Of a DNA stretch of 64,000 nucleotides, positions 28,909-40,846 are shown one piece after another. Positions within the stretch are counted from its first letter, which is position 1. Each line of letters begins with the position of its first letter. Both the position numbers and the translations under genes were made by a program. The stretch is from a virus. The notes beneath the pieces were generated by a model. The model worked only from the letters and a program-made list of their open reading frames with translations, did no database searches and was not told the origin of the DNA. Location: the IMG/VR virus record IMGVR_UViG_3300045988_115953; one strand, 5' to 3'.

Positions 28909-30093
28909 ATGAGGTATTTTATCAGTACTAAGGAGAGTAAAAGGAACGAGAGCGGGATGATTCCCGTATCGGTGGTGTTCCGTCACGAGGGTAGGGAGTT
29001 TGCTGCTTCAACTGGCATAGCGGTGAAGTACGCAATGAACGGCATGGTGTTCTCGGCAGAGGAGCCTAATCTGAAAGCCAAGACAAGGAGGCTTATGTGT
29101 ATCATGGACGAGGTGGATAGGTATGTCCTTGAGCACGTGGATTCGGATTATGAGCGGATGAAGGAGGATTTGCGCTGCATCGTTACGGGCAAGGACCCGA
29201 GGGAAAAGAGGTCGCTTGCAAGTTTTGTGCGTGAGTTTGCCGAACTGAAGAGTGGGAGTACAAGGAAAATATATCTCAGGACGGCGGCGTTGATTGAAGG
29301 CTATGCGCCTGAGGCGACGTTCGGTTCTGTGAACGGCTCGTGGCTTGACGGCTTCGTGCGGTCTATTGGCGAGAATGCAAGCGTGAACTATGCTGCCATC
29401 AACCTGAGGAACATACGTGCGGTGTTTAACTGGGCGATAGACAACGAATGGACATCGTGCTATCCGTTCAGACGCTACAATATAAAGTCGGAGAAGGTGG
29501 CAATCAACAATATCTCGCTGGAGCAGCTGAGGGCGGTGCGTGACTTTCCTCTTGATGACTGGCGTCGGATTTACCGGGACTTATTCATGTTGTCGTTCTA
29601 TCTGTGCGGCATCAATCCTGCGGACTTGCTGCGATTGAAGGCGTCGGATATGAAAAACGGGCGTATTCGCTACAAACGAGCGAAGACAGGGCATTTGTTT
29701 GACATTCCAGTACCGAAGCCCGCTGAGGAGATTATAAGCCGCTGGAGGGGCAGGAAATGGCTTCTATGCCCTCTTGACAACTATTCCGACTACAGGGGCT
29801 TTTATTGTCACTGGAATGCTGCTCTGAAGAAAATCGGCAGTCTGGAGCTTGCCCCTGACAAGTCGGGTGGGTTGCGCAAGAAGGTCTGGTGTCCGATTGT
29901 GGAGGGTCTGACGACGTACACGGCTCGGTATACGTTTGCGAGCATCGCCGCGGAGCTTGAGATTCCGCGTGAGACGATAGCTCTTTGTCTCGGTCATTCG
30001 TGGGCTGATGTGACGAGCCACTACATCGCCTATGACACTAAGCGCATAGATGATGCGGTGGCTCGGATTGTGGCTTACGTGGAGGGGAGCTGA
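28909..30093 (+). CDS. tyrosine recombinase / phage integrase 1
   Basis: 394 aa with a SAM-like N-domain. Catalytic region TARYTFASIAAELEIPRETIALCLGHSWADVTSHYIAY (R...HxxR-type...Y). Adjacent to attP. Confidence 0.85.
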   Translation: MRYFISTKESKRNESGMIPVSVVFRHEGREFAASTGIAVKYAMNGMVFSAEEPNLKAKTRRLMCIMDEVDRYVLEHVDSDYERMKEDLRCIVTGKDPREKRSLASFVREFAELKSGSTRKIYLRTAALIEGYAPEATFGSVNGSWLDGFVRSIGENASVNYAAINLRNIRAVFNWAIDNEWTSCYPFRRYNIKSEKVAINNISLEQLRAVRDFPLDDWRRIYRDLFMLSFYLCGINPADLLRLKASDMKNGRIRYKRAKTGHLFDIPVPKPAEEIISRWRGRKWLLCPLDNYSDYRGFYCHWNAALKKIGSLELAPDKSGGLRKKVWCPIVEGLTTYTARYTFASIAAELEIPRETIALCLGHSWADVTSHYIAYDTKRIDDAVARIVAYVEGS

Positions 30094-30506: not shown

Positions 30507-30740
30507 CAGCTCTCGCGTGCGAGAGTGTGAGTATATAGATGTTATGTATAGCTATTAGGATATATGAATGTATATGAATATATACTAATAGCTATATATA
30601 ATATCTATATATATATAGTGCGATCGCATGCAATCGCATAGGCATAATCGGACGCATTGATAATCAGTGAGTTACGACGATAAAAATACGTCGGAAAATA
30701 CGTCTGATTATGCGATTTATGCGATCGCATTTTTCGCATG
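30507..30740. promoter_or_regulatory. palindrome- and repeat-rich spacer
   Basis: Near-palindrome CACAGCTCTCGCGTGCGAGAGTGTG (~30507-30531), a TA-rich run with TATATGAAT x2, and perfect palindromes TGCGATCGCA (~30619-30628) and ATGCGATCGCAT (~30719-30730) plus extra ATGCGAT half-sites. Confidence 0.4.
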
Positions 30741-30755: not shown

Positions 30756-31790
30756 TTACTGGTCTTCGGGATAGTCTTTTCCGACCGCATGGAGGGCGTT
30801 CATCTCGCGTTCGGCGCGTTCTGCTCCGGGTATCTGGAAGGCTGCGAATGTCTCGGGTGAGAGTCCGATTTCTCCGACGATGTAACGCTGCGTCATGGAG
30901 ATGTTGGGGACGTTGCCTGACATGTGTCCCATGCAGAGGGCTATCTGCTCGATGGGGATGCCTTTGAGCGCGAGGTTGGTGGCGAAGGAGCGGCGACCGG
31001 TGTGTGAGGAGACGAACTCCCACTTGTGTCCTCTCTGCGTGCGTCCTGCGCGGAAGACCTTGGTGATGGTGCCTATTCCGCAGGCTCGGCAGATGTCGCG
31101 TATGTTGTCGTTGTAGCATCTGACGGAGATTTCTCTCGGCTCGGTGGGGGATACGCGTTGCAGATAGATGCGCAGCCACGGATGGATGGGGACCTTGACG
31201 ACGGTCTTGGTCTTGTGCGAGACGTACGAGATGACGCGTCCGTCCTCGCTGATGTTGTCCGGCGAGAGTGTGAGGCAGTCGGAGAGGCGTGCTCCGCACA
31301 GGCATTCGAGCATGAAGATGCGCTTGGCGTGCTTGGCTGCTTTGGTGCGTGGCGTGAACTCGTGGATGCGCCGTATCTCGTCGTCGGTGAGCGCCACGGA
31401 CTGCGACGGGACTTTCTTTGTGCGCAGGACTGTCCCGAAATTGAGTGACGGGACGGGCTTGGAGGAGTTTTCGCGTATGATGGCGTTGACTTCGGCGAAG
31501 ATGGTCTTCGCTGAGTTTGGCGCGTATGATGACGCTATCTCCTCTCGGAAGTCGCGTAGGTTGTCGTCGGTGAGGTCTTCCCACATGGGCGGGCGTCCGA
31601 CTATGCCCTTGAAGATGTTGACCACCTTTACTCGTCCCGGATGTTTCCATATCCAGGCTCCGTAGAAGGTGTGGCGCCAGGGATAGCCGTCGTATGTGGC
31701 GAAATAGCCTTGTCGGATGGCATTGGCGTACTTTTCCTGCTGTTCGGGAGTGAGCATCTCCTGCCAGCGTCTTGTCTTGAGTTGTGTCAT
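30756..31790 (-). CDS. tyrosine recombinase 2
   Basis: 344 aa. C-terminal TGRRSFATNLALKGIPIEQIALCMGHMSGNVPNISMTQRYI carries the R...HxxR-like...Y catalytic pattern. A minus-strand TACCTTTG box at 31831-31838 lies upstream. Confidence 0.8.
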   Translation of the reverse strand: MTQLKTRRWQEMLTPEQQEKYANAIRQGYFATYDGYPWRHTFYGAWIWKHPGRVKVVNIFKGIVGRPPMWEDLTDDNLRDFREEIASSYAPNSAKTIFAEVNAIIRENSSKPVPSLNFGTVLRTKKVPSQSVALTDDEIRRIHEFTPRTKAAKHAKRIFMLECLCGARLSDCLTLSPDNISEDGRVISYVSHKTKTVVKVPIHPWLRIYLQRVSPTEPREISVRCYNDNIRDICRACGIGTITKVFRAGRTQRGHKWEFVSSHTGRRSFATNLALKGIPIEQIALCMGHMSGNVPNISMTQRYIVGEIGLSPETFAAFQIPGAERAEREMNALHAVGKDYPEDQ

Positions 31791-32586: not shown

Positions 32587-32708
32587 AATTTTAAGAAGAT
32601 AATTGTTATAAGTGTGGCCTCTGTAATTTCAAGATAGGTTGTTCTTTGCGTGAGACTACAAAATATTTAAGAGAGGAAGTTTGCATAATAGTTGTAAGTG
32701 GCTCAGGT

Positions 32709-32765
32709 GGGCCTTACTGGGCCTATCTGAGCCTCTTTAGGTGATGGGCCTCGCTGGGCCTCTTT
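32709..32765 (+). repeat. 10-bp-phased RRGCCT array (5 units)
   Basis: GGGCCT-TACT-GGGCCT-ATCT-GAGCCT-CTTT ... GGGCCT-CGCT-GGGCCT-CTTT. Confidence 0.6.
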
Positions 32766-35546: not shown

Positions 35547-36229
35547 AATTGTTTTATTGTTTGGTTGATAGCGGCGAAGGAGGAGATGTGTGTGCCTCGC
35601 TACACCTCTTCAGGCTGGCTGTGCTAAGATTGTGAATACAAAGGTAGTGATTTTGCGGTTATCGGGCAGTCTTTTGGTGATGTTTTTTTTCAAGGAAAAG
35701 CGGACACGCTCTGAGGATGTGTTGCATTTCTGTAAGTGAATGATCGAAGACCGTTCTGAGAAACAGATCTATACCGGCAGATGCTGCTGGTAAAGATCTG
35801 TTGATGCAAACAGTCTGGAGTGAATGAATCCTCCTTGCGTGTCCTGCGGGATGCAATTCCCGTGGTGCGGACTTCTCATGAGTGGCGGCACATGGCTGTA
35901 GGTGTGTGATGTATCCAGAACGTGTGCGGGATGTGTGAGGCGGATGCCGCCTTGAACATCCCGCATTAAAGCTCTGGATGCTGAACGGGATTCTTTTGAA
36001 GAACGCTTCCCTGTGCTTGGGATGGTTGAGAGGCTGAGCCTTGCTGAGCCTATCTGAGGGGCGGCTGTGATGTCTTGGCACGTGTCTGTAGGTGAATGAT
36101 GTTGCCTGCGTAGCAGAAGGCAGCGGTCCCAGTGGGTAACACTCGGGACCGTGCCTTCTTGCTATTGCCGGTAGCTGAATGTGACATCCTTGCTGCGCGA
36201 TGCCCTGTGCCGGGCTGGTGATGCGGCTC
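35547..36229. ncRNA. ORF-free structured segment downstream of the RT (three box+hairpin modules A-C)
   Basis: 683 nt with only out-of-context ORFs. Conserved boxes at 35730-35744, 35896-35910 and 36086-36100, each adjacent to a long composite hairpin (e.g. AGAAGGCACGGTCCC/GGGACCG-C-TGCCTTCT at ~36109-36153). Strand of any transcript unknown. Confidence 0.4.
36026..36061 (+). repeat. 10-bp-phased RRGCCT array
   Basis: GAGGCT-GAGCCT-TGCT-GAGCCT-ATCT-GAGGGG, inside the RT-downstream ORF-free segment. Confidence 0.5.
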
Positions 36230-37495
36230 TTAGAGGTTGGCTACGAGGGTGTCGTAGGCGGCTTTGCTGGTAAGCAGGGCCTTGCGTGCGCAGCCTAATG
36301 TGAGATAGCCGGTGATGATGGGGGCGGTCTTGCTGCGGTTGGCGGTGACGTTTCGTCCTCGTCCCCGCTGTATGCAGCCGACCTGCTGATTCTTGACGAA
36401 CCCTATGCCTCCTATCTTTCGCTTGCCCGTCTTGACGGCTCGGAGGCAGTCCATGACGAACGTGTTGAGCGTATAGACGTCCTCTTCGGCGTTGATGATG
36501 GGCAGGACCTGCGTGGACCATGAATGTCCTTCGTACCCCTTGTAGAGATAGCGGTTGACGGAGTTTATGGCTTTTTGCAGGGTGACGTCACGCTTCTTGA
36601 CTGTGCGCTTCTCGATTTCCTTCTGGAATGTCTTGATGCGCGTGGACGAGAGCGAGATGCTGCTGCCCTTGATGGAGAATCCGAGGAACTTGAACCAATG
36701 GTCAGCGTCGAGGAATTCTACCTTCTTGGGATTGAGCTTCATCTGCATCTTCGCCAGCTCCTCCTCCATGATGCGCTTGGCTTCCTGCCAGTCCTCGCCC
36801 ACGAAGATGGCGTCGTCCGAATAACGGCAGTAGACGCCGCGCAGACGGGACAGGCGCTCGTCAATGTGATAGAGGACCACGTCGGCAAGCCATGAGGCTA
36901 CGCTGCATCCCTGCTTGAGCGACTGGTATCTCTCGGAGAGAGTGCCGTCGGTATCGAAATAGAGATTGCAGTGGTAGTAAGCGCGTAGGACGTCTATCAG
37001 AGCGGAATGACCGTGACGAAGCTCTACCTGATCGAACGCCCAGTCGATGTACGACAGGAGCACCGTATCGAAATACTTGGACAGGTCGGACTTGAAGCCT
37101 CCGATGCGTCCTTTCGCGAAGGATATATGTCGGGATATGTTCTGTACGACGCGTCCGCATCCGATGCCCTTCTGATATGATGTGCAGCAGGGATGGACCA
37201 TTTCGGGTGTCAGCTCGAAGAGGAGGTCGTTGGCAATGGAGAGGAGTATGCGGTCGGCAGGCTCGTTGATGTAGACGGTGCGGAATTCTCCGTTGTCCTT
37301 CGGTATGAGAGCCGTGTGAGGTGGCATTATCCTGTACTTGCCGTCGCGTATCTTCTGATACATCAAGGCACGTGCCTCGGGTGTGGTGAGCTGATAGAGC
37401 GTGGCTTTGTTGATGTCCTTGTCGAGTCCTTTCTGTATGGCGTACTGCCAACGCTCGGACTGGAAGGCCATCTGTAAGATTTTGTCTTCTTTCAT
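36230..37495 (-). CDS. reverse transcriptase (orphan; class not assignable by eye)
   Basis: 421 aa with RT motifs: IPKDNGEFRTV (1), ADRILLSIANDLL (2), GFKSDLSKYFDTV (3/A), LKQGCSVASWLADVVL (4/B), YCRYSDDAIFVG (5/C, YxDD), LNPKKVEFL (6), FKFLGFSI (7). Has a ~135-aa C-terminal extension. Confidence 0.85.
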   Translation of the reverse strand: MKEDKILQMAFQSERWQYAIQKGLDKDINKATLYQLTTPEARALMYQKIRDGKYRIMPPHTALIPKDNGEFRTVYINEPADRILLSIANDLLFELTPEMVHPCCTSYQKGIGCGRVVQNISRHISFAKGRIGGFKSDLSKYFDTVLLSYIDWAFDQVELRHGHSALIDVLRAYYHCNLYFDTDGTLSERYQSLKQGCSVASWLADVVLYHIDERLSRLRGVYCRYSDDAIFVGEDWQEAKRIMEEELAKMQMKLNPKKVEFLDADHWFKFLGFSIKGSSISLSSTRIKTFQKEIEKRTVKKRDVTLQKAINSVNRYLYKGYEGHSWSTQVLPIINAEEDVYTLNTFVMDCLRAVKTGKRKIGGIGFVKNQQVGCIQRGRGRNVTANRSKTAPIITGYLTLGCARKALLTSKAAYDTLVANL

Positions 37496-37556
37496 AATTC
37501 TTTGGATTTTATGGTTAATAGAGCGTGAAACATAATGTTTTACGCAGTTTTTGGCG

Positions 37557-37883
37557 GTGAGGCTCAGAGGAGCGGTGCCTGGATATAAACGGATGATCTG
37601 GTACTGTCATCTGTAGTGACGTCGCCGGGATGATATGGCCGGCGACGTCCCGATTGTGACAGTGCCGATGAATGTTCTTCTGCCTCCTCACGGGAAGGAC
37701 GACAAATCCTTTGCGGTGCAGCCGTGGGCTTGGAGTCTGGCTGTAGGCGAATGATCTGACGACTGCGGTTCGAGGTCAGGACCCAGCCACGGTAATCGAC
37801 CTGGCTGGTTCCTGAGTCTCAGAGAGCAGCGTGTGAACGATGCACACCCACTGCACGGCGGTGACTTTCGGGGTGATGACGAA
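37557..37883. ncRNA. ORF-free structured segment occupying one gene slot upstream of the RT (module D plus nested hairpin)
   Basis: 327 nt between a canonical boundary hairpin (GCGTGAAAC/GTTTTACGC, ~37523-37545) and the stop of 37884-38897. Nested hairpin at 37600-37666 (outer GGTACTGTCA/TGACAGTGCC, inner GACGTCGCCGG/CCGGCGACGTC). Box at 37741-37755. Confidence 0.4.
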
Positions 37884-38897
37884 CTATCGGTCAGCCCACT
37901 CGTCAATCTTGGCGCTCACGGACATTTCAGAGTCGGCGATGAGCTGCTTGAGCACGCCCAGCAAGCGCCATCCCTCATCTGCGCGGGCATACTCGGCAGT
38001 CTTGCTTTCGAGATAATCAATAGTCTTGGTTGTGTGCATCGTGCTGTGAGGACCCTGCTTGAAGCGTGCTCCGTGGAACAGGACCATGTTGCGCATGGTG
38101 AAGTAAGCACCGGAACCCTTGTAGGCGTTGATGAACGCCTCGGACTGCTTGGTGTCGGCAGGGAGACGCTTCATAAGCTTGTTGAACTTGACAACAAGAC
38201 GATAGAGACGTTCTCCGTTGACGTCATTCATTGCAAGGGCAAGGTCGCGGAAAGGGCTGTAAAGCTTGGACTCCAAGTCAGAGACGAAGATATTCTCTCT
38301 GCTAAGACGCACGTAGGGCTTGCCCTTGCAAGTGTGAGTGCCTTGGCGCAACAGCTTTTCGATGTAAGAGCGGAGCTTCTGAACATAGTCGAACACCATG
38401 TATGAAGCTACCCTGCCGTTGAACCAAAGGGCACGCTGCTCGTAGCAGACCTTGTCCTTGTGCTTGAGCATCTTGTACTGGTCGAGCAGTTCCTTCTCAA
38501 GCATGCGCCACTGATAGGCGTAGCCCTTGTCCTGCAAGAGGGCGTTGAAGGAGACGTTCTGATGCTCCATGCGGTCGAGCATGTGGAACATCTGTGACAT
38601 TACCCAACGGCGGTAGAGCGTGTAGTTGCGGATGTGACCTCCTCCTGCGATGCTCGCGAAGACGGGATCGTCGTCCGTAACCTGTACGGGGACTCCGTCA
38701 ACGACCTTGACGACCATCTCCTCTCCCATGGGAAAGTAGTTGGAAACGTCTACGCCTGCTGTCTTGAGAGCTGCGATGCGTGCTGCCGCTGACTTTGCCT
38801 TTGGGGCTGTTGTGTTCTGCGACTGTGCCTGTGTGTCGGCGTTAGCTACCTCTGTCATTGTGAACTCACCTGAAATGATAAGATTTCTCTTTTTCAT
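37884..38897 (-). CDS. hypothetical protein
   Basis: 337-aa ORF with a GAATTATG start context. No family recognised. Confidence 0.55.
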   Translation of the reverse strand: MKKRNLIISGEFTMTEVANADTQAQSQNTTAPKAKSAAARIAALKTAGVDVSNYFPMGEEMVVKVVDGVPVQVTDDDPVFASIAGGGHIRNYTLYRRWVMSQMFHMLDRMEHQNVSFNALLQDKGYAYQWRMLEKELLDQYKMLKHKDKVCYEQRALWFNGRVASYMVFDYVQKLRSYIEKLLRQGTHTCKGKPYVRLSRENIFVSDLESKLYSPFRDLALAMNDVNGERLYRLVVKFNKLMKRLPADTKQSEAFINAYKGSGAYFTMRNMVLFHGARFKQGPHSTMHTTKTIDYLESKTAEYARADEGWRLLGVLKQLIADSEMSVSAKIDEWADR

Positions 38898-38995
38898 AAT
38901 TCAAAGATTTAAAATTGTTAATAATGTTGGTTGATTGGTGGGCGAGGGGATGCCTCGTCCTGTTTTTGGGGGTGAGAATGGCAGGGGGATAGGAT

Positions 38996-39035
38996 TGGCC
39001 TCACTGGGCCTGCCTAAGCCTTACTAAGCCTTTTG
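38996..39035 (+). repeat. 10-bp-phased RRGCCT array (4 units)
   Basis: TGGCCT-CACT-GGGCCT-GCCT-AAGCCT-TACT-AAGCCT-TTTG. Confidence 0.6.
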
Positions 39036-39043
39036 GGGTGTCC

Positions 39044-39499
39044 TTAATCTTCTTTTGACTTTGGCTCTACCCATTGTCGGAGGATGATGAGGTCCTTGTC
39101 GTTCGGGGACTGCCAAAACCAGCTGCCCCACTTGCTTTGCCATTGGAGCTGTCCGTCAAACAACATGAGAAGGACGAAGACTTCGAGCTGGCAGCGTGCC
39201 ACTTCGCGAGAAACACCGTAGAGCATATCGTGGTCAGAGAGGTCTTTCTCAGGGAGAGCCTTGAAATAGCTGCGTCGGTGTGACTCGGACCGCTCAGAGG
39301 GGATGGAGTGCTTGTACTGCTGGTAATACCTTTCGATTTCGCGGAGCATAACGGACCCGTTGAGAGGGAGGATGTTGACATCGTCGAGACTGACAAACTC
39401 TCTGTCCAGACGGAGTGTGCGCTTCTCGAAATTGACGGTGAAACGTGAGCCGAGTTCTACGGCTTGTGAGACGTTAAGCATAAATTGCGTGTGTGTCAT
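39044..39499 (-). CDS. hypothetical protein
   Basis: Start refined to ATG 39499 (MTHTQFMLNV), with an AGAATTATG context. Confidence 0.5.
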   Translation of the reverse strand: MTHTQFMLNVSQAVELGSRFTVNFEKRTLRLDREFVSLDDVNILPLNGSVMLREIERYYQQYKHSIPSERSESHRRSYFKALPEKDLSDHDMLYGVSREVARCQLEVFVLLMLFDGQLQWQSKWGSWFWQSPNDKDLIILRQWVEPKSKED

Positions 39500-39532
39500 A
39501 ATTCTTGATGTTTTGGTTTGTTGGCGGTACAC

Positions 39533-39866
39533 TCAAAGGGAATGTCGCATGGCTATATGACGTTGATGTTATCCCGTGTGAAGCACGCGGAGATGTCTGA
39601 GTGATAGCTTCAGACATCTCGCGTATCTCGTACGGGGGAACCAAATAATCCCTCCTTGTGTACCCATTCAGGCTGCGATACCTATTGCTGGCTCATAATC
39701 ATGTCTTGATGGTTGATGATGTGGCGTGACGAAGACTTGGCGCATTACTGTAGGTCGTTGATGTATCCAGCGGTAGACTCATCCGGGTAGTGTCCCGGAT
39801 GAGACGCTGGAGACTGAATCCTGTCTTCGCTCACGCCTGTTTTAGGCTGCGCTACCTTGGCTTAGG
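39533..39866. ncRNA. ORF-free structured segment occupying one gene slot (module E)
   Basis: 334 nt. Contains an 11-bp hairpin GAGATGTCTGA/TCAGACATCTC (39590-39620), a box at 39736-39763, and a nested hairpin at 39767-39810 (CCAGCG...CATCCGGG/CCCGGATG...CGCTGG). Confidence 0.4.
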
Positions 39867-40088
39867 TTATAACTGCTGCCATTTGGTTGTGCCGTTGGCC
39901 TCCTCTGTGCGGTAGTAATCTTGGTCTTCTTCGACTTCGATGCAGTTGTCTACATAATCGTCACTTGTCAGCACGATGTCGTTTTTGAGATAAGCATCTC
40001 TTACACGCTGTACAGCTTCTGCTTCGCTGTCGGCATTCACACTTACCACCTTGTTGAGAAACTCGGTGATTGATACATAATACTTCAT
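39867..40088 (-). CDS. small acidic hypothetical protein
   Basis: Start refined to ATG 40088 (MKYYVSITEFL), 73 aa. Confidence 0.45.
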   Translation of the reverse strand: MKYYVSITEFLNKVVSVNADSEAEAVQRVRDAYLKNDIVLTSDDYVDNCIEVEEDQDYYRTEEANGTTKWQQL

Positions 40089-40165: not shown

Positions 40166-40846
40166 TTAAAGTTGGGCAGGGCTTACTGTCCGCACGCTGT
40201 AATAAGGTGTATTGAAGGGGTATTTGACCTCGTTGACGCAATACATCACGGAGGGCGTGCTCATAGTGAGCGTGTCTTGACAAATGACATTGGCGTTCAT
40301 GCCGTGAGCCATGAGATTGAGGGCGCACATCTTGCAGGCTATGGGGTCAACGTCTTGTGCAATGTATCGGAAACGGCGTCCTGCCGAATGGTCGAGGCTG
40401 CTCTTCTCCATATAATGAGCGAGAAGAAGGCGACCGCTGCCAGAGGCGCAGTCGTTGACTATACCGCTCTGCTTTTCGTTCAACGAAGATATGCGTGACA
40501 TGATGTCGGCTACGCTTGGCGGTGTGAAAAACTGTCCTGTATGGGACGCCTTGCCACGTGTGAGATACAACTCCTCGTAGAGTATGCCGAACACGTCAAG
40601 CCACTTGCCTTGCTCCATAGCTGTAGCAACGTCTGTGAGCCACAGGGTAGCGAGACCGGCAAATTCGGGACACTTTTGTGTGCAGTCAAGAAGATGCTGA
40701 TGATAGGTGTCGGGACCGGACTGGAAAGCCTTTACGCTGAAAAACTCGAGCAGATAGTCGAGAAAATCGTTAAGGGCCAACTCGTGAGGACGATGATTCA
40801 TTTCTGCCTGTGCAGAAATGATTTCGATGTACTTTTTCTTTTCCAT
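40166..40846 (-). CDS. N6-adenine DNA-methyltransferase-like SAM-binding domain protein (apparently truncated before the NPPY/F motif)
   Basis: TGQFFTPPSVADIM (motif X-like), NDCASGSGRLL (motif I) and CKMCALNLMAHGM fit HsdM/N6_Mtase. The ORF ends ~25 aa later and no NPP(Y/F) is seen. Confidence 0.55.
   Translation of the reverse strand: MEKKKYIEIISAQAEMNHRPHELALNDFLDYLLEFFSVKAFQSGPDTYHQHLLDCTQKCPEFAGLATLWLTDVATAMEQGKWLDVFGILYEELYLTRGKASHTGQFFTPPSVADIMSRISSLNEKQSGIVNDCASGSGRLLLAHYMEKSSLDHSAGRRFRYIAQDVDPIACKMCALNLMAHGMNANVICQDTLTMSTPSVMYCVNEVKYPFNTPYYSVRTVSPAQL

What the first reader, a model, noticed from the sequence alone, without database searches (positions are those of the whole stretch)
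35547..37883. Orphan reverse transcriptase embedded in ORF-free, hairpin-dense flanks inside a phage accessory-gene array
The 421-aa ORF 36230-37495 has all RT motifs (IPKDNGEFRTV, SDLSKYFDTV, QGCSVASWLAD, YCRYSDDAIFV, LNPKKVEFL, FKFLGFSI) and an unassigned ~135-aa C-terminal extension. No Cas1, Avd, endonuclease, maturase-X signature or recognisable effector is adjacent.

Its flanks are among the longest ORF-free stretches in the array:
- Upstream, 37557-37883 (327 nt) occupies exactly one 'gene slot' between two canonical cassette boundaries. It contains a 10+11-bp nested hairpin (37600-37666) and two further hairpins.
- Downstream, 35547-36229 (683 nt) holds three long composite hairpins of 15-20 bp.

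An RT plus an upstream structured ncRNA is the layout of retrons and of DRT2/DRT9-type defence RTs. Here, however, the gene sits in a phage, has several RNA-like modules on both sides, and a further module lies one gene away (39533-39866).
Basis: partly seen in the sequence, partly recalled or inferred. Interest (0 to 1): 0.85.

Follow-up and report, generated by a model that had tools for sequence, protein, structure and literature searches.

The report
Phage UG27 reverse transcriptase RNA-array module
The "orphan" reverse transcriptase is a complete copy of the already-described UG27 system of gut Bacteroidales phages, with its two usual partner proteins next door and its hairpin-rich flanks forming a seven-unit array of one conserved folded RNA module whose function is still unknown.

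Summary
The 421-aa ORF (36230-37495, minus) matches PADLOC RT_UG27 end to end (E 7e-211), C-terminal extension included. The two upstream genes match the UG27-associated models RTas337 (E 3e-99) and RTas346 (E 5e-50). They accompany the RT in 77 of 80 related viral loci.

The ORF-free flanks are not generic boundaries. They hold seven copies (3+2+2) of one ~165-nt unit found nowhere else in the window. Each unit has a long-range closing helix, a ~67-nt three-tier hairpin, a conserved single-stranded tail (ATCA-N6-TAnAG-NN-AnGCGCC) and a pseudoknot.

In relatives the same units form a tandem array of usually 8-9 copies (638 tails on the RT strand, 0 on the other). The array is supported by compensatory changes and by 69 unrelated hairpin sequence families. 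It persists down to 55% RT identity, including cultured Bacteroides phage BS-TP1 and Bacteroidales prophages.

Mestre et al. (2022) described UG27, its two partners and a "three stem-loop" ncRNA. A 2026 preprint I could not open probably covers the array.

Verdict: a new, gene-order-permuted member of a known but mechanistically unsolved system. The units most likely serve as RT scaffold/template RNAs (inferred, not shown).

The parts
36230..37495 (-). UG27-class reverse transcriptase (421 aa, YSDD active site)
   Evidence: ORF. Pfam RVT_1 E 3.6e-17. PADLOC RT_UG27 E 6.9e-211, residues 3-421 on model 2-420/420. 358 relatives in viral contigs.
37884..38897 (-). RTas337 partner protein (337 aa; cluster 337 of Mestre et al.), fold and function unknown
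   Evidence: PADLOC RTas337 E 2.8e-99. Syntenic with the RT in 77/80 loci. 705 homologs, none named. No Pfam or PHROG hit. AF2 pLDDT 80, with no Foldseek hit at E<=0.001 in PDB or BFVD.
39044..39532 (-). RTas346 partner protein (ORF 162 aa from GTG; homologs of ~147-152 aa suggest the real start is the ATG at 39499), fold and function unknown
   Evidence: PADLOC RTas346 E 5e-50, model 7-147/147. Syntenic in 77/80 loci. 187 homologs. AF2 pLDDT 82.7, no PDB fold match.
39867..40088 (-). Small DpnD/PcfM-like protein (73 aa) that precedes the module in most loci
   Evidence: Pfam PF14207 E 2e-15. Its homolog precedes the module in 73/80 loci in both gene orders.
39722..39852 (-). RNA unit 1: hairpin 39767-39810; tail 39739-39762; pseudoknot partners GCGCA (39848-39852) / TGCGC (39740-39744); closing helix 39823-39838 / 39722-39737
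   Evidence: PWM 27.7 bits. Element coordinates and duplex dG -24.2.
39525..39678 (-). RNA unit 2: hairpin 39573-39636; tail 39544-39567; pseudoknot TCGCA (39674-39678) / TGCGA (39545-39549); closing helix GGTACAC-aagg-AGGGA / TCCCT-ttga-GTGTACC, 12/12 bp. Its 3' strand runs into the annotated GTG start of the p162 ORF.
   Evidence: PWM 28.1 bits.
37712..37860 (-). RNA unit 3: hairpin 37762-37830; tail 37732-37755; closing helix 37841-37860 / 37712-37730. It corresponds in position to the single unit that follows RTas337 in the canonical layout.
   Evidence: PWM 17.2 bits. Duplex dG -21.4. Layout.
37553..37692 (-). RNA unit 4: hairpin 37600-37666; tail 37574-37597; closing helix 37675-37692 / 37553-37572. 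Present here and in L002 but absent from L001 and L003, whose RTs are 99% identical.
   Evidence: PWM 19.7 bits.
36056..36207 (-). RNA unit 5: hairpin 36105-36171; tail 36077-36100, which starts 130 nt after the RT stop as in the canonical layout; closing helix 36182-36207 / 36056-36075
   Evidence: PWM 22.9 bits.
35863..36016 (-). RNA unit 6: hairpin 35913-35979; tail 35887-35910; pseudoknot GCACA (36012-36016) / TGTGC (35888-35892); weakest closing helix of the seven (dG -10.9)
   Evidence: PWM 26.8 bits.
35699..35856 (-). RNA unit 7: hairpin 35748-35816; tail 35721-35744; pseudoknot TTGCA (35852-35856, loop of a small hairpin) / TGCAA (35722-35726); closing helix GACACGC-aagg-AGGAT / ATCCT-caga-GCGTGTC, 12/12 bp, followed by a U-run
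   Evidence: PWM 25.1 bits.
35639..35646 (-). Bacteroidetes-type -7 promoter box (TACCTTTG) ~100 nt upstream of the next gene (p199). It marks the end of the module and is not part of the ncRNA.
   Evidence: It is the only TAnnTTTG on this strand between 33 and 41 kb. This is a consensus match only.

Best explanation
The region 35699-40088 is one UG27 module of a temperate Bacteroidales phage.

Components:
- a Class-2 UG/Abi reverse transcriptase;
- its two canonical partner proteins, RTas337 and RTas346;
- a small DpnD/PcfM-like protein;
- seven copies of a ~165-nt structured RNA unit on the same strand.

In most relatives the order is RT, 8 units, RTas346, RTas337, 1 unit. Here the same parts are permuted to 2 units, RTas346, RTas337, 2 units, RT, 3 units. 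That permutation is why the RT looks 'embedded' in hairpins.

Each unit has four elements:
- a long-range closing helix (about 7 bp, then an AAGG/yUGA internal loop, then 5 bp);
- a ~67-nt three-tier hairpin with a hypervariable distal stem;
- a conserved single-stranded tail, AUCA-N6-UAnAG-NN-AnGCGCC, starting 0-5 nt after the hairpin;
- a 5-bp pseudoknot between tail positions 19-23 and an upstream linker segment, often the loop of a small hairpin.

Shown here: class membership, the partner genes, the array, its strand specificity, its conservation and its covariation.

Inferred:
- The genes and units are co-transcribed.
- Each unit binds the RT as scaffold and/or template for cDNA synthesis, as the cognate ncRNAs do in related Class-2 systems (DRT2, DRT9, DRT10) and in retrons.
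- RTas337 and RTas346 act as RNP components or effectors.

The benefit to the phage is not determined. It could be counter-defence, exclusion of competing phages, or a life-cycle role.
For: Class and partners:
- RT_UG27 E 6.9e-211, full length.
- RTas337 E 2.8e-99 and RTas346 E 5e-50.
- Synteny in 77/80 viral loci and in Bacteroidales genomes.
- Published description of UG27 with clusters 337/346 and a stem-loop ncRNA in gut phages (PMC9226505).

Array:
- The exact tail core occurs 4 times vs 0 expected, and all 7 copies lie inside the module.
- The PWM at >=14 bits gives 638 hits on the RT strand and 0 on the other across 80 loci.
- Most loci carry 8-9 units, with median spacing 163 nt.
- The array persists to 55% RT identity and in cultured phage BS-TP1.

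Structure:
- The hairpin has a median span of 69 nt and ~26 bp, ending 0-5 nt before the tail. Mean MFE is -43.2 vs -28.5 kcal/mol for shuffles.
- 650 units fall into 69 sequence clusters that share this geometry.
- 12 of 24 pairs (unit 6) and 6 of 26 pairs (unit 3) show double compensatory changes.
- Pseudoknot: the exact reverse complement of tail 19-23 is in the unit's own linker in 70% of families vs 10% of controls. For +27 to +31 the figures are 51% vs 7%.
- The crossing order A, B, hairpin, A', B' is shown.
- Closing helix: own tail 9.88/12 bp vs 7.73 for controls, p = 2e-25, using 17 different helix sequences.
- G.U cells outnumber A.C cells in the hairpin stems on the RT strand.

Co-transcription: there is no Bacteroidetes -7 box on this strand inside the module, and one sits just after unit 7.

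Phage context: portal protein, primase and two integrases.
Against: - No expression, processing, RT-binding or cDNA data exist for this locus, and none could be generated here. The template/scaffold role is by analogy only.
- Mestre et al. found no defence-island enrichment for UG27 and left its function open.
- The partner proteins have no detectable fold or family relatives, so nothing points to an effector activity.
- Three window units (3, 4, 6) fit the rigid 7+4+5 closing-helix geometry poorly (8/12), though flexible duplexes exist.
- The G.U vs A.C asymmetry is partly built into RNAalifold, and the RT strand is A/C-rich. Strand assignment therefore rests mainly on the strand-specific tail and on co-orientation with the RT.
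- The promoter inference rests on a consensus match.
Confidence: 0.6

Rival explanations
1. The hairpins are ordinary phage intergenic elements (terminators, RNase III processing sites or 'cassette boundaries') and only happen to surround the RT.
For: - The genes in this part of the window form a long co-oriented array with short spacers.
- Unit 7's closing helix is followed by a U-run.
- The last 150 nt of the downstream flank does look like a plain promoter/leader.
Against: - The tail motif occurs only inside the module in 64 kb.
- It follows the RT in every lineage examined with RT identity of 55% or more, with 638 vs 0 strand bias.
- Units stand in tandem with no genes between them in most loci.
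- They carry a conserved pseudoknot and a closing helix that a terminator or RNase III site would not need.
Confidence: 0.03
2. The units are DNA-level recombination sites (attC-like single-strand hairpins or homologous-recombination modules) that shuffle genes in and out. The RT would be one cargo gene.
For: - RTas346/RTas337 and the RT sit at different unit boundaries in different lineages.
- Unit 4 is gained or lost between phages with 99%-identical RT.
- Two tyrosine recombinase genes lie ~5 kb away.
Against: - The only genes ever found between units are the three module genes themselves, not varied cargo.
- The set {RT, RTas337, RTas346, units} is conserved as a whole.
- G.U pairs are tolerated on the RT strand.
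- A long-range pseudoknot with covariation fits a folded RNA better than an attC-type site.
- The permutations need only occasional homologous recombination between repeated tails.
Confidence: 0.07
3. The module is a retron-like multicopy-ssDNA producer. The outer closing helix acts as a1/a2, a G in the conserved 5' internal loop (AAGG) primes, and each hypervariable hairpin is an msd-like template. The phage would then make 7-9 different hairpin ssDNAs.
For: - The geometry resembles a retron: a flanking inverted repeat encloses a long hairpin whose sequence is hypervariable while its pairing is kept.
- That pattern is the classical one for msd regions (own knowledge).
- The RT gives weak hits to retron RT models.
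Against: - The RT is not in the retron clade (retron models E 1e-13 vs UG27 7e-211).
- The characterised UG/Abi RTs I know of are protein-primed or use other priming (own knowledge).
- No msr-like element was defined here.
- No product data exist.
Confidence: 0.15
4. The module is a telomerase/DRT10-like repeat synthesiser. The hairpin is a template-boundary element, the tail (AUCA-N6-UAnAG) is a short template copied repeatedly, and the pseudoknot plus closing helix form the catalytic-core scaffold.
For: - The order closing helix > boundary hairpin > conserved single strand > pseudoknot resembles the telomerase RNA core (own knowledge).
- UG17/DRT10 scores among the nearest classes to this RT in PADLOC (E 1.8e-24). 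The abstracts listed describe it as a Class-2 system making protein-primed tandem-repeat DNA.
Against: - The tail has no internal direct repeat for realignment.
- The middle 6 nt differ between units and even between orthologs.
- This model does not explain why 7-9 units, or why the hairpin stem is hypervariable.
- It is purely an analogy.
Confidence: 0.12

Closest known systems
UG27 systems (Class 2 UG/Abi RTs) of human-gut phages, Mestre et al. 2022 (PMC9226505)
   Same: - Same RT class, with a full-length HMM match.
- Same two partner families (clusters 337 and 346, i.e. PADLOC RTas337 and RTas346).
- Same habitat: phages and prophages of Bacteroidales, with some Firmicutes.
- A long structured non-coding region next to the RT.
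   Different: - The gene order is permuted. The partners lie upstream of the RT and the non-coding units are split 2+2+3, instead of RT, array, partners.
- The paper's main text describes one putative ncRNA 'with three long stem-loops'. I find a tandem array of 7-9 copies of one unit with a conserved tail, a closing helix and a pseudoknot.
- A September 2026 preprint that I could not open probably reports this. Its term counts are UG27 74, array 27, pseudoknot 12.
DRT9 (UG28) and DRT10 (UG17) RT-ncRNA defence systems
   Same: - Related Class-2 UG/Abi RTs. They are the next-best PADLOC models after UG26: Drt9 E 8e-25 and UG17 E 1.8e-24.
- Each depends on a cognate structured ncRNA encoded beside the RT.
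   Different: - Those are bacterial anti-phage systems with a single ncRNA upstream of the RT. DRT10 also has a SLATT effector.
- Here the system is phage-borne, has 7-9 RNA units mostly downstream of the RT, and has two unrelated partner proteins.
- UG27 shows no defence-island enrichment.
Retrons (msr-msd ncRNA + RT + effector)
   Same: - An RT plus adjacent structured RNA.
- A flanking inverted repeat encloses a long hairpin whose sequence varies while its pairing is kept.
- Accessory proteins are encoded alongside.
   Different: - The RT is outside the retron clade.
- There are many units per locus instead of one.
- No msr or branching-G context is established.
- No msDNA has been shown.
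DRT2 (UG2) rolling-circle 'neo' gene synthesis
   Same: - A Class-2 UG RT with a neighbouring ncRNA.
- The template domain is closed by a helix.
   Different: - NCBIfam Drt2 scores 43 bits against a cutoff of 390.
- The helix-closed domain has no length constraint modulo 3 (13/21/11).
- It almost never has a stop-free frame as a concatemer: 5 of 45 on one strand and 2 of 45 on the other.

Membership tests
UG27 system (Mestre et al. 2022) | RT matches the UG27 profile over its full length | tested here: met
   PADLOC RT_UG27 E 6.9e-211, 698.6 bits, residues 3-421 on model 2-420/420. The next-best model is RT_UG26 at 112.8 bits.
UG27 system (Mestre et al. 2022) | Associated protein cluster 337 encoded alongside | tested here: met
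   ORF 37884-38897 matches PADLOC RTas337, E 2.8e-99, model 18-315/316. Syntenic in 77/80 loci.
UG27 system (Mestre et al. 2022) | Associated protein cluster 346 encoded alongside | tested here: met
   ORF 39044-39532 matches PADLOC RTas346, E 5e-50, model 7-147/147. Syntenic in 77/80 loci.
UG27 system (Mestre et al. 2022) | Structured non-coding region with long stem-loops next to the RT | tested here: met
   Three units lie directly 3' of the RT, with the first tail 130 nt after the stop codon as in relatives. There are 7 units in all. Covariation is shown in relatives.
UG27 system (Mestre et al. 2022) | Located in a phage or prophage of gut Bacteroidetes/Firmicutes | tested here: met
   - The window has a portal protein, a primase and integrases.
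- Relatives occur in IMG/VR contigs, in Bacteroides phage BS-TP1 and in Bacteroidales chromosomes.
Retron | RT belongs to the retron RT clade | tested here: not met
   The best retron models score RT_Ec107-like E 1.6e-13 (48.7 bits) and NCBIfam retron_St85 46.4 bits against a cutoff of 235.
Retron | Single msr-msd ncRNA with a1/a2 repeats and a branching G; msDNA produced | not testable with these tools
   A closing inverted repeat and an msd-like hairpin exist in each unit. There are 7-9 units, no msr was defined, and product detection needs experiments.
DRT9 (UG28) / DRT10 (UG17) | RT matches the Drt9 or UG17 profile as best hit | tested here: not met
   Drt9 scores 85.6 bits and RT_UG17 84.4 bits, against 698.6 bits for UG27.
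DRT2 (UG2) | RT passes the Drt2 model; the ncRNA template yields a stop-free concatemeric ORF | tested here: not met
   - NCBIfam Drt2 scores 43.4 bits against a cutoff of 390.
- Domain length modulo 3 is unconstrained, and stop-free frames occur in 5/45 and 2/45 units.
Group II intron | RT/maturase passes the family cutoff; intron RNA domains present | tested here: not met
   - TIGR04416 scores 97.5 bits against a cutoff of 300.
- No Rfam group II intron hit, or any other family hit, in 30-45 kb at E<=1.
Diversity-generating retroelement (DGR) | Avd accessory gene and a TR/VR repeat pair | tested here: inconclusive
   - No Avd or other Pfam domain in the adjacent ORFs.
- The hairpin segments have no 11-mer matches elsewhere in the window beyond chance.
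- A dedicated TR/VR search with adenine-specific mismatches was not run.

The most novel reading that the evidence does not exclude
The array is a phage-encoded 'multi-template' RT factory. Each of the 7-9 units directs synthesis of its own hairpin-forming cDNA or DNA repeat. The distal stems evolve faster than synonymous sites (66% vs 83% identity) while keeping their pairing. On this reading they are specificity determinants in an arms race, for example decoys or inhibitors aimed at host or rival-phage nucleic-acid-sensing defences. That would make UG27 the first RT-based counter-defence, or inter-phage weapon, that uses an array of diversifying RNA templates together with two proteins of new fold.
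Probability: 0.15. Interest if true: 0.85.

Novelty: new member of a known kind. Interest (0 to 1): 0.42.

Why it matters
UG27 is one of the few UG/Abi reverse transcriptase classes that lives mainly in phages rather than in bacterial defence islands. Its function is unknown, and no structure or product has been reported in the literature I could read.

This locus adds three things:
- A clear anatomy. One ~165-nt RNA module is repeated 7-9 times, with a conserved tail, a closing helix, a pseudoknot and a fast-evolving hairpin stem.
- Evidence that genes and units can be permuted without the set being lost.
- Tractable experimental systems: cultured Bacteroides phage BS-TP1, and prophages in isolate genomes such as Segatella copri HDD04 and Alistipes putredinis DSM 17216.

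If the units are RT templates, the system would extend the DRT2/DRT9/DRT10/retron theme to the phage side of the conflict. As a scan finding, however, it mostly re-discovers a published system.

Tried and rejected
- **Rfam:** nothing relevant in 30-45 kb at E<=1.
- **Megablast of the region against deposited phages:** no match.
- **blastn of the flanks against 80 related loci:** only the three near-identical phages match. Comparison therefore had to go through the tail PWM and the structure.
- **Phage-wide cassette boundary:** rejected.
- **DRT2-like endless ORF in the helix-closed domain:** rejected.
- **Antisense or guide role of the hairpin arms against the phage's own 64 kb:** no matches beyond chance.
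- **Function of the partner proteins:** no result from Pfam, PHROGs, PDB profile search, or Foldseek against PDB and BFVD.
- **First loose test of tail-linker complementarity (7-mer scoring):** only weak separation. The exact 5-mer window scan then resolved two sharp helices.
- **MFE comparison of the two strands:** uninformative because the RT strand is A/C-rich.
- **The 2026 preprint that mentions UG27 74 times:** could not be opened under three id forms. Only term counts were obtained.
- **Covariance model of the unit:** not built, because the PWM already recovered the units with no opposite-strand hits at >=14 bits.
Full report
**1. Observation**

The 421-aa ORF at 36230-37495 (minus strand) is present with the stated motifs. 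Pfam sees only RVT_1, at residues 64-275.

The three ORF-poor spacers on the RT strand fold far better than dinucleotide shuffles:
- 35547-36229: z = -9.0.
- 37496-37883: z = -4.4.
- 39533-39866: z = -5.5.

There are three small corrections:
- The upstream spacer is 388 nt, not 327 nt.
- The 'further module' is two genes away, not one.
- The last ~150 nt of the downstream flank holds no structured unit. It does hold the only Bacteroidetes-type -7 box on that strand between 33 and 41 kb, about 100 nt before the next gene.

**2. The RT is not an orphan**

PADLOC's RT_UG27 model matches residues 3-421 over model positions 2-420 of 420 (E 6.9e-211). The runners-up are UG26 (E 4e-33), Drt9/UG28 (8e-25) and UG17 (2e-24). 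Retron and CRISPR-associated RT models score far lower.

NCBIfam models for group II intron RT, retron St85 and Drt2/3a/4 all fall far below their cutoffs. The 'unassigned' C-terminal extension is therefore part of the UG27 family model.

The two genes immediately upstream match PADLOC's RT-associated models:
- RTas337: 37884-38897, E 2.8e-99.
- RTas346: 39044-39532, E 5e-50.

Mestre et al. (PMC9226505) defined UG27 as a Class-2 UG/Abi RT that:
- is found mostly in human-gut phages of Bacteroidetes and Firmicutes;
- is associated with clusters 337 and 346;
- has a putative ncRNA 'with three long stem-loops' in the neighbouring intergenic region;
- shows no defence-island enrichment and has no assigned function.

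**3. Context**

The window is a temperate phage: it has a portal protein, a primase and two tyrosine integrases.

The RT has 358 relatives in IMG/VR contigs. In 77 of the 80 loci fetched, both partner genes accompany the RT on the same strand. A small DpnD/PcfM-like gene (39867-40088; Pfam PF14207, E 2e-15) precedes the module in 73 of them.

Homologs at 41-75% identity lie in Bacteroidales genomes. These include the complete Segatella copri HDD04 chromosome, Alistipes putredinis DSM 17216, Bacteroides graminisolvens and B. neonati. A Faecalimonas (Firmicutes) bin also carries one, as expected for prophages.

A cultured phage, Bacteroides phage BS-TP1 (host B. salyersiae BG8), carries a 65%-identical RT annotated as 'tail protein'. 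A 1.35-kb unannotated gap follows it, then the two partner genes.

**4. What the flanks are**

Every long hairpin in the three spacers is followed within 2-6 nt by the same motif, ATCAyyCrCCTACAGnnAtGyGCC.
- The exact core occurs 4 times against 0 expected.
- All seven convincing copies lie on the RT strand between 35721 and 39762.
- Two weaker PWM hits elsewhere have neither the hairpin nor the long-range partners.

So this is a module-specific repeat, not a phage-wide boundary.

A PWM of the 24-nt tail finds 638 copies on the RT strand and none on the other strand at >=14 bits across the 80 viral loci. Most loci carry 8-9 copies at a median spacing of 163 nt.

The dominant layout is p73, RT, 8 units, RTas346, RTas337, 1 unit (35 of 80 loci). 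The window has p73, 2 units, RTas346, RTas337, 2 units, RT, 3 units, and its three near-identical relatives L001-L003 show essentially this order.

As in the canonical layout, the first tail after the RT begins about 130 nt past the stop codon.

The array persists in every lineage examined down to 55% RT identity. In BS-TP1 the tail has a spacer one nucleotide longer. In several lineages the partner genes sit at other unit boundaries. The set is conserved, but its order is not.

**5. Structure of a unit**

*Hairpin.* The hairpin 5' of the tail has a median span of 69 nt and ~26 bp, and ends 0-5 nt before the tail. Mean MFE is -43.2 kcal/mol against -28.5 for shuffles.

*Sequence families.* The 650 units fall into 69 blastn clusters that are position-specific: unit k resembles unit k of related phages. 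Across cluster representatives, only the tail carries positional sequence information. Many unrelated sequences therefore adopt the same geometry.

*Covariation.* Alignments of orthologous units show double compensatory changes in 12 of 24 pairs (unit 6) and 6 of 26 pairs (unit 3). G.U is tolerated and A.C is rare.

*Long-range helices.* Two emerged from a scan across families.
- Tail positions 19-23 have an exact reverse complement in the unit's own linker in 70% of families, against 10% of mismatched controls.
- Positions +27 to +31 do so in 51%, against 7%.
- Their partners lie at about -110 (often the loop of a small hairpin) and about -88. The order is A, B, hairpin, A', B', which is a pseudoknot topology.
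- Helix B continues across an AAGG/yUGA-type internal loop into a further ~7 bp.
- In a composite 12-bp test, a unit's own tail pairs 9.88/12 against 7.73 for controls (p = 2e-25). Twenty-seven of 69 families reach >=11 bp against 0.7% of controls, using 17 different helix sequences.

*Window units.* All seven have a closing duplex of -10.9 to -27.5 kcal/mol. Units 2 and 7 fit the rigid consensus geometry perfectly (12/12), while units 1, 3, 4 and 6 score 8/12. Four of the seven (units 1, 2, 6 and 7) have an exact pseudoknot partner.

**6. Evolutionary pattern**

Among 29 orthologous copies of unit 6, mean pairwise identities are:
- scaffold elements: 90-94%;
- RT gene: 92%;
- RT third-codon positions: 83%;
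- distal hairpin stem: 66%, with pairing maintained.

The stem therefore changes faster than near-neutral sites. This indicates diversifying selection or stem swapping.

Unit 4 is present in the window and in L002. It is absent from L001 and L003, whose RTs are 99% identical.

**7. Partner proteins**

RTas337 and RTas346 have hundreds of unnamed homologs and no Pfam or PHROG family.

Their AlphaFold models are confident (pLDDT 80 and 82.7). RTas337 has no Foldseek match at E<=0.001 in PDB or BFVD, and RTas346 has none in PDB. PDB profile searches found nothing significant.

The closest solved RT by sequence is a group II intron RT (E 8.5e-13). A 499-aa 'RNA-dependent DNA polymerase' chain (9ioa), possibly a DRT-type RT, scores only 4.6e-5.

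**8. Mechanism**

Shown here:
- A conserved set of RT, two partners and 7-9 co-oriented structured units.
- Structure under selection.
- No internal Bacteroidetes-type promoter box on the module's strand.

Inferred:
- The module is transcribed as one RNA.
- Each unit folds into the closing-helix, hairpin, tail and pseudoknot module.
- Each unit binds the RT as scaffold and/or template for cDNA synthesis.

The inference rests on the behaviour of the related Class-2 systems (DRT2, DRT9, DRT10) and of retrons. The first part comes from the abstracts listed and, and the rest from my own knowledge.

Two concrete geometries are compatible with the anatomy:
- **Retron-like.** The outer helix acts as a1/a2, and the hypervariable hairpin is an msd-like template.
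- **Telomerase/DRT10-like.** The hairpin is a template boundary, the tail is the template, and the pseudoknot plus closing helix form the core.

A DRT2-like endless ORF is excluded. The hairpin arms have no targets elsewhere in the window beyond chance.

My estimates:
- UG27 membership with a structured RNA array: about 0.95.
- The units being RT scaffold/template RNAs: about 0.55-0.6.
- Any particular product model: 0.15 or less.

The biological role remains open. It could be counter-defence, exclusion of rival phages, or a life-cycle function.

**9. Novelty**

The family, its phage habitat, its partners and the presence of a stem-loop ncRNA were published in 2022.

The main text of that paper does not describe the tandem-array architecture, the conserved tail, the pseudoknot, the permuted gene orders or the fast-evolving distal stems.

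A September 2026 preprint that I could not open contains UG27 74 times, 'repeat' 39, 'array' 27, 'pseudoknot' 12 and 'covariation' 10. It probably reports at least the array.

I therefore file the locus as a new, gene-order-permuted member of a known kind. Interest is moderate because the system's mechanism and role are unsolved and tractable hosts exist.

Noticed in passing
L081 (PQ571274.1, Bacteroides phage BS-TP1) 5995-7257 and 7258-8606: The UG27 RT of this cultured phage is annotated as 'tail protein' (gp79). The 1.35-kb stretch after it is unannotated, yet it holds 8 tails (ATCG-N7-TAmAG) spaced 141-180 nt apart (most 160-180). This is a ready experimental system.
   Followed up: partly
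window 37553-37692 (unit 4) vs L001 and L003: One whole RNA unit is present in the window and in L002 but absent from two phages whose RT is 99% identical. Units are therefore gained or lost as modules.
   Followed up: partly
A5 alignment (unit 6 of 29 viral loci), columns 92-124: The distal stem of the long hairpin has 66% mean pairwise identity. The RT's third-codon positions have 83% and the RNA scaffold 90-94%. Base-pairing is kept, so the stem evolves faster than near-neutral sites.
   Followed up: partly
L090, L094, L100, L102, L103, L106 (genome-contig loci): The RTas346 and RTas337 genes sit at different positions within the unit array in different lineages, apparently always at unit boundaries. 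This suggests recombination between repeated tails.
   Followed up: partly
window 28909-30093 (+) and 30756-31790 (-): Two tyrosine-integrase-like genes (PHROG 1, E 4e-27 and 5e-22) in opposite orientations, about 5 kb from the module. The phage is probably temperate.
   Followed up: no
window 40166-40846 (-): A 226-aa ORF with an N6 DNA methylase domain that covers only the first ~120 of 311 profile positions. It overlaps the long version of the p73 ORF and may be a truncated or split methyltransferase. Its homolog lies upstream of the module in a few order-A loci.
   Followed up: no
L109 (Bacteroidaceae MAG, RT 41% identical): A distant UG27-like RT is followed directly by an RTas346-like gene, with no recognisable tail motifs. 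This may be a diverged lineage with a different RNA or none.
   Followed up: no
window 39525-39541 vs ORF start 39532: The 3' strand of unit 2's closing helix overlaps the annotated GTG start of the RTas346 ORF. Homologs are ~147-152 aa long, so the real start is probably the ATG at 39499 and the overlap is an ORF-calling artefact.
   Followed up: partly
window 30533-30610 and 32679-32746 (+): Weak miRNA-family Rfam hits (E 0.09-0.5, far below the gathering scores). They mark hairpins in other spacers of the gene array and are most likely chance matches.
   Followed up: no
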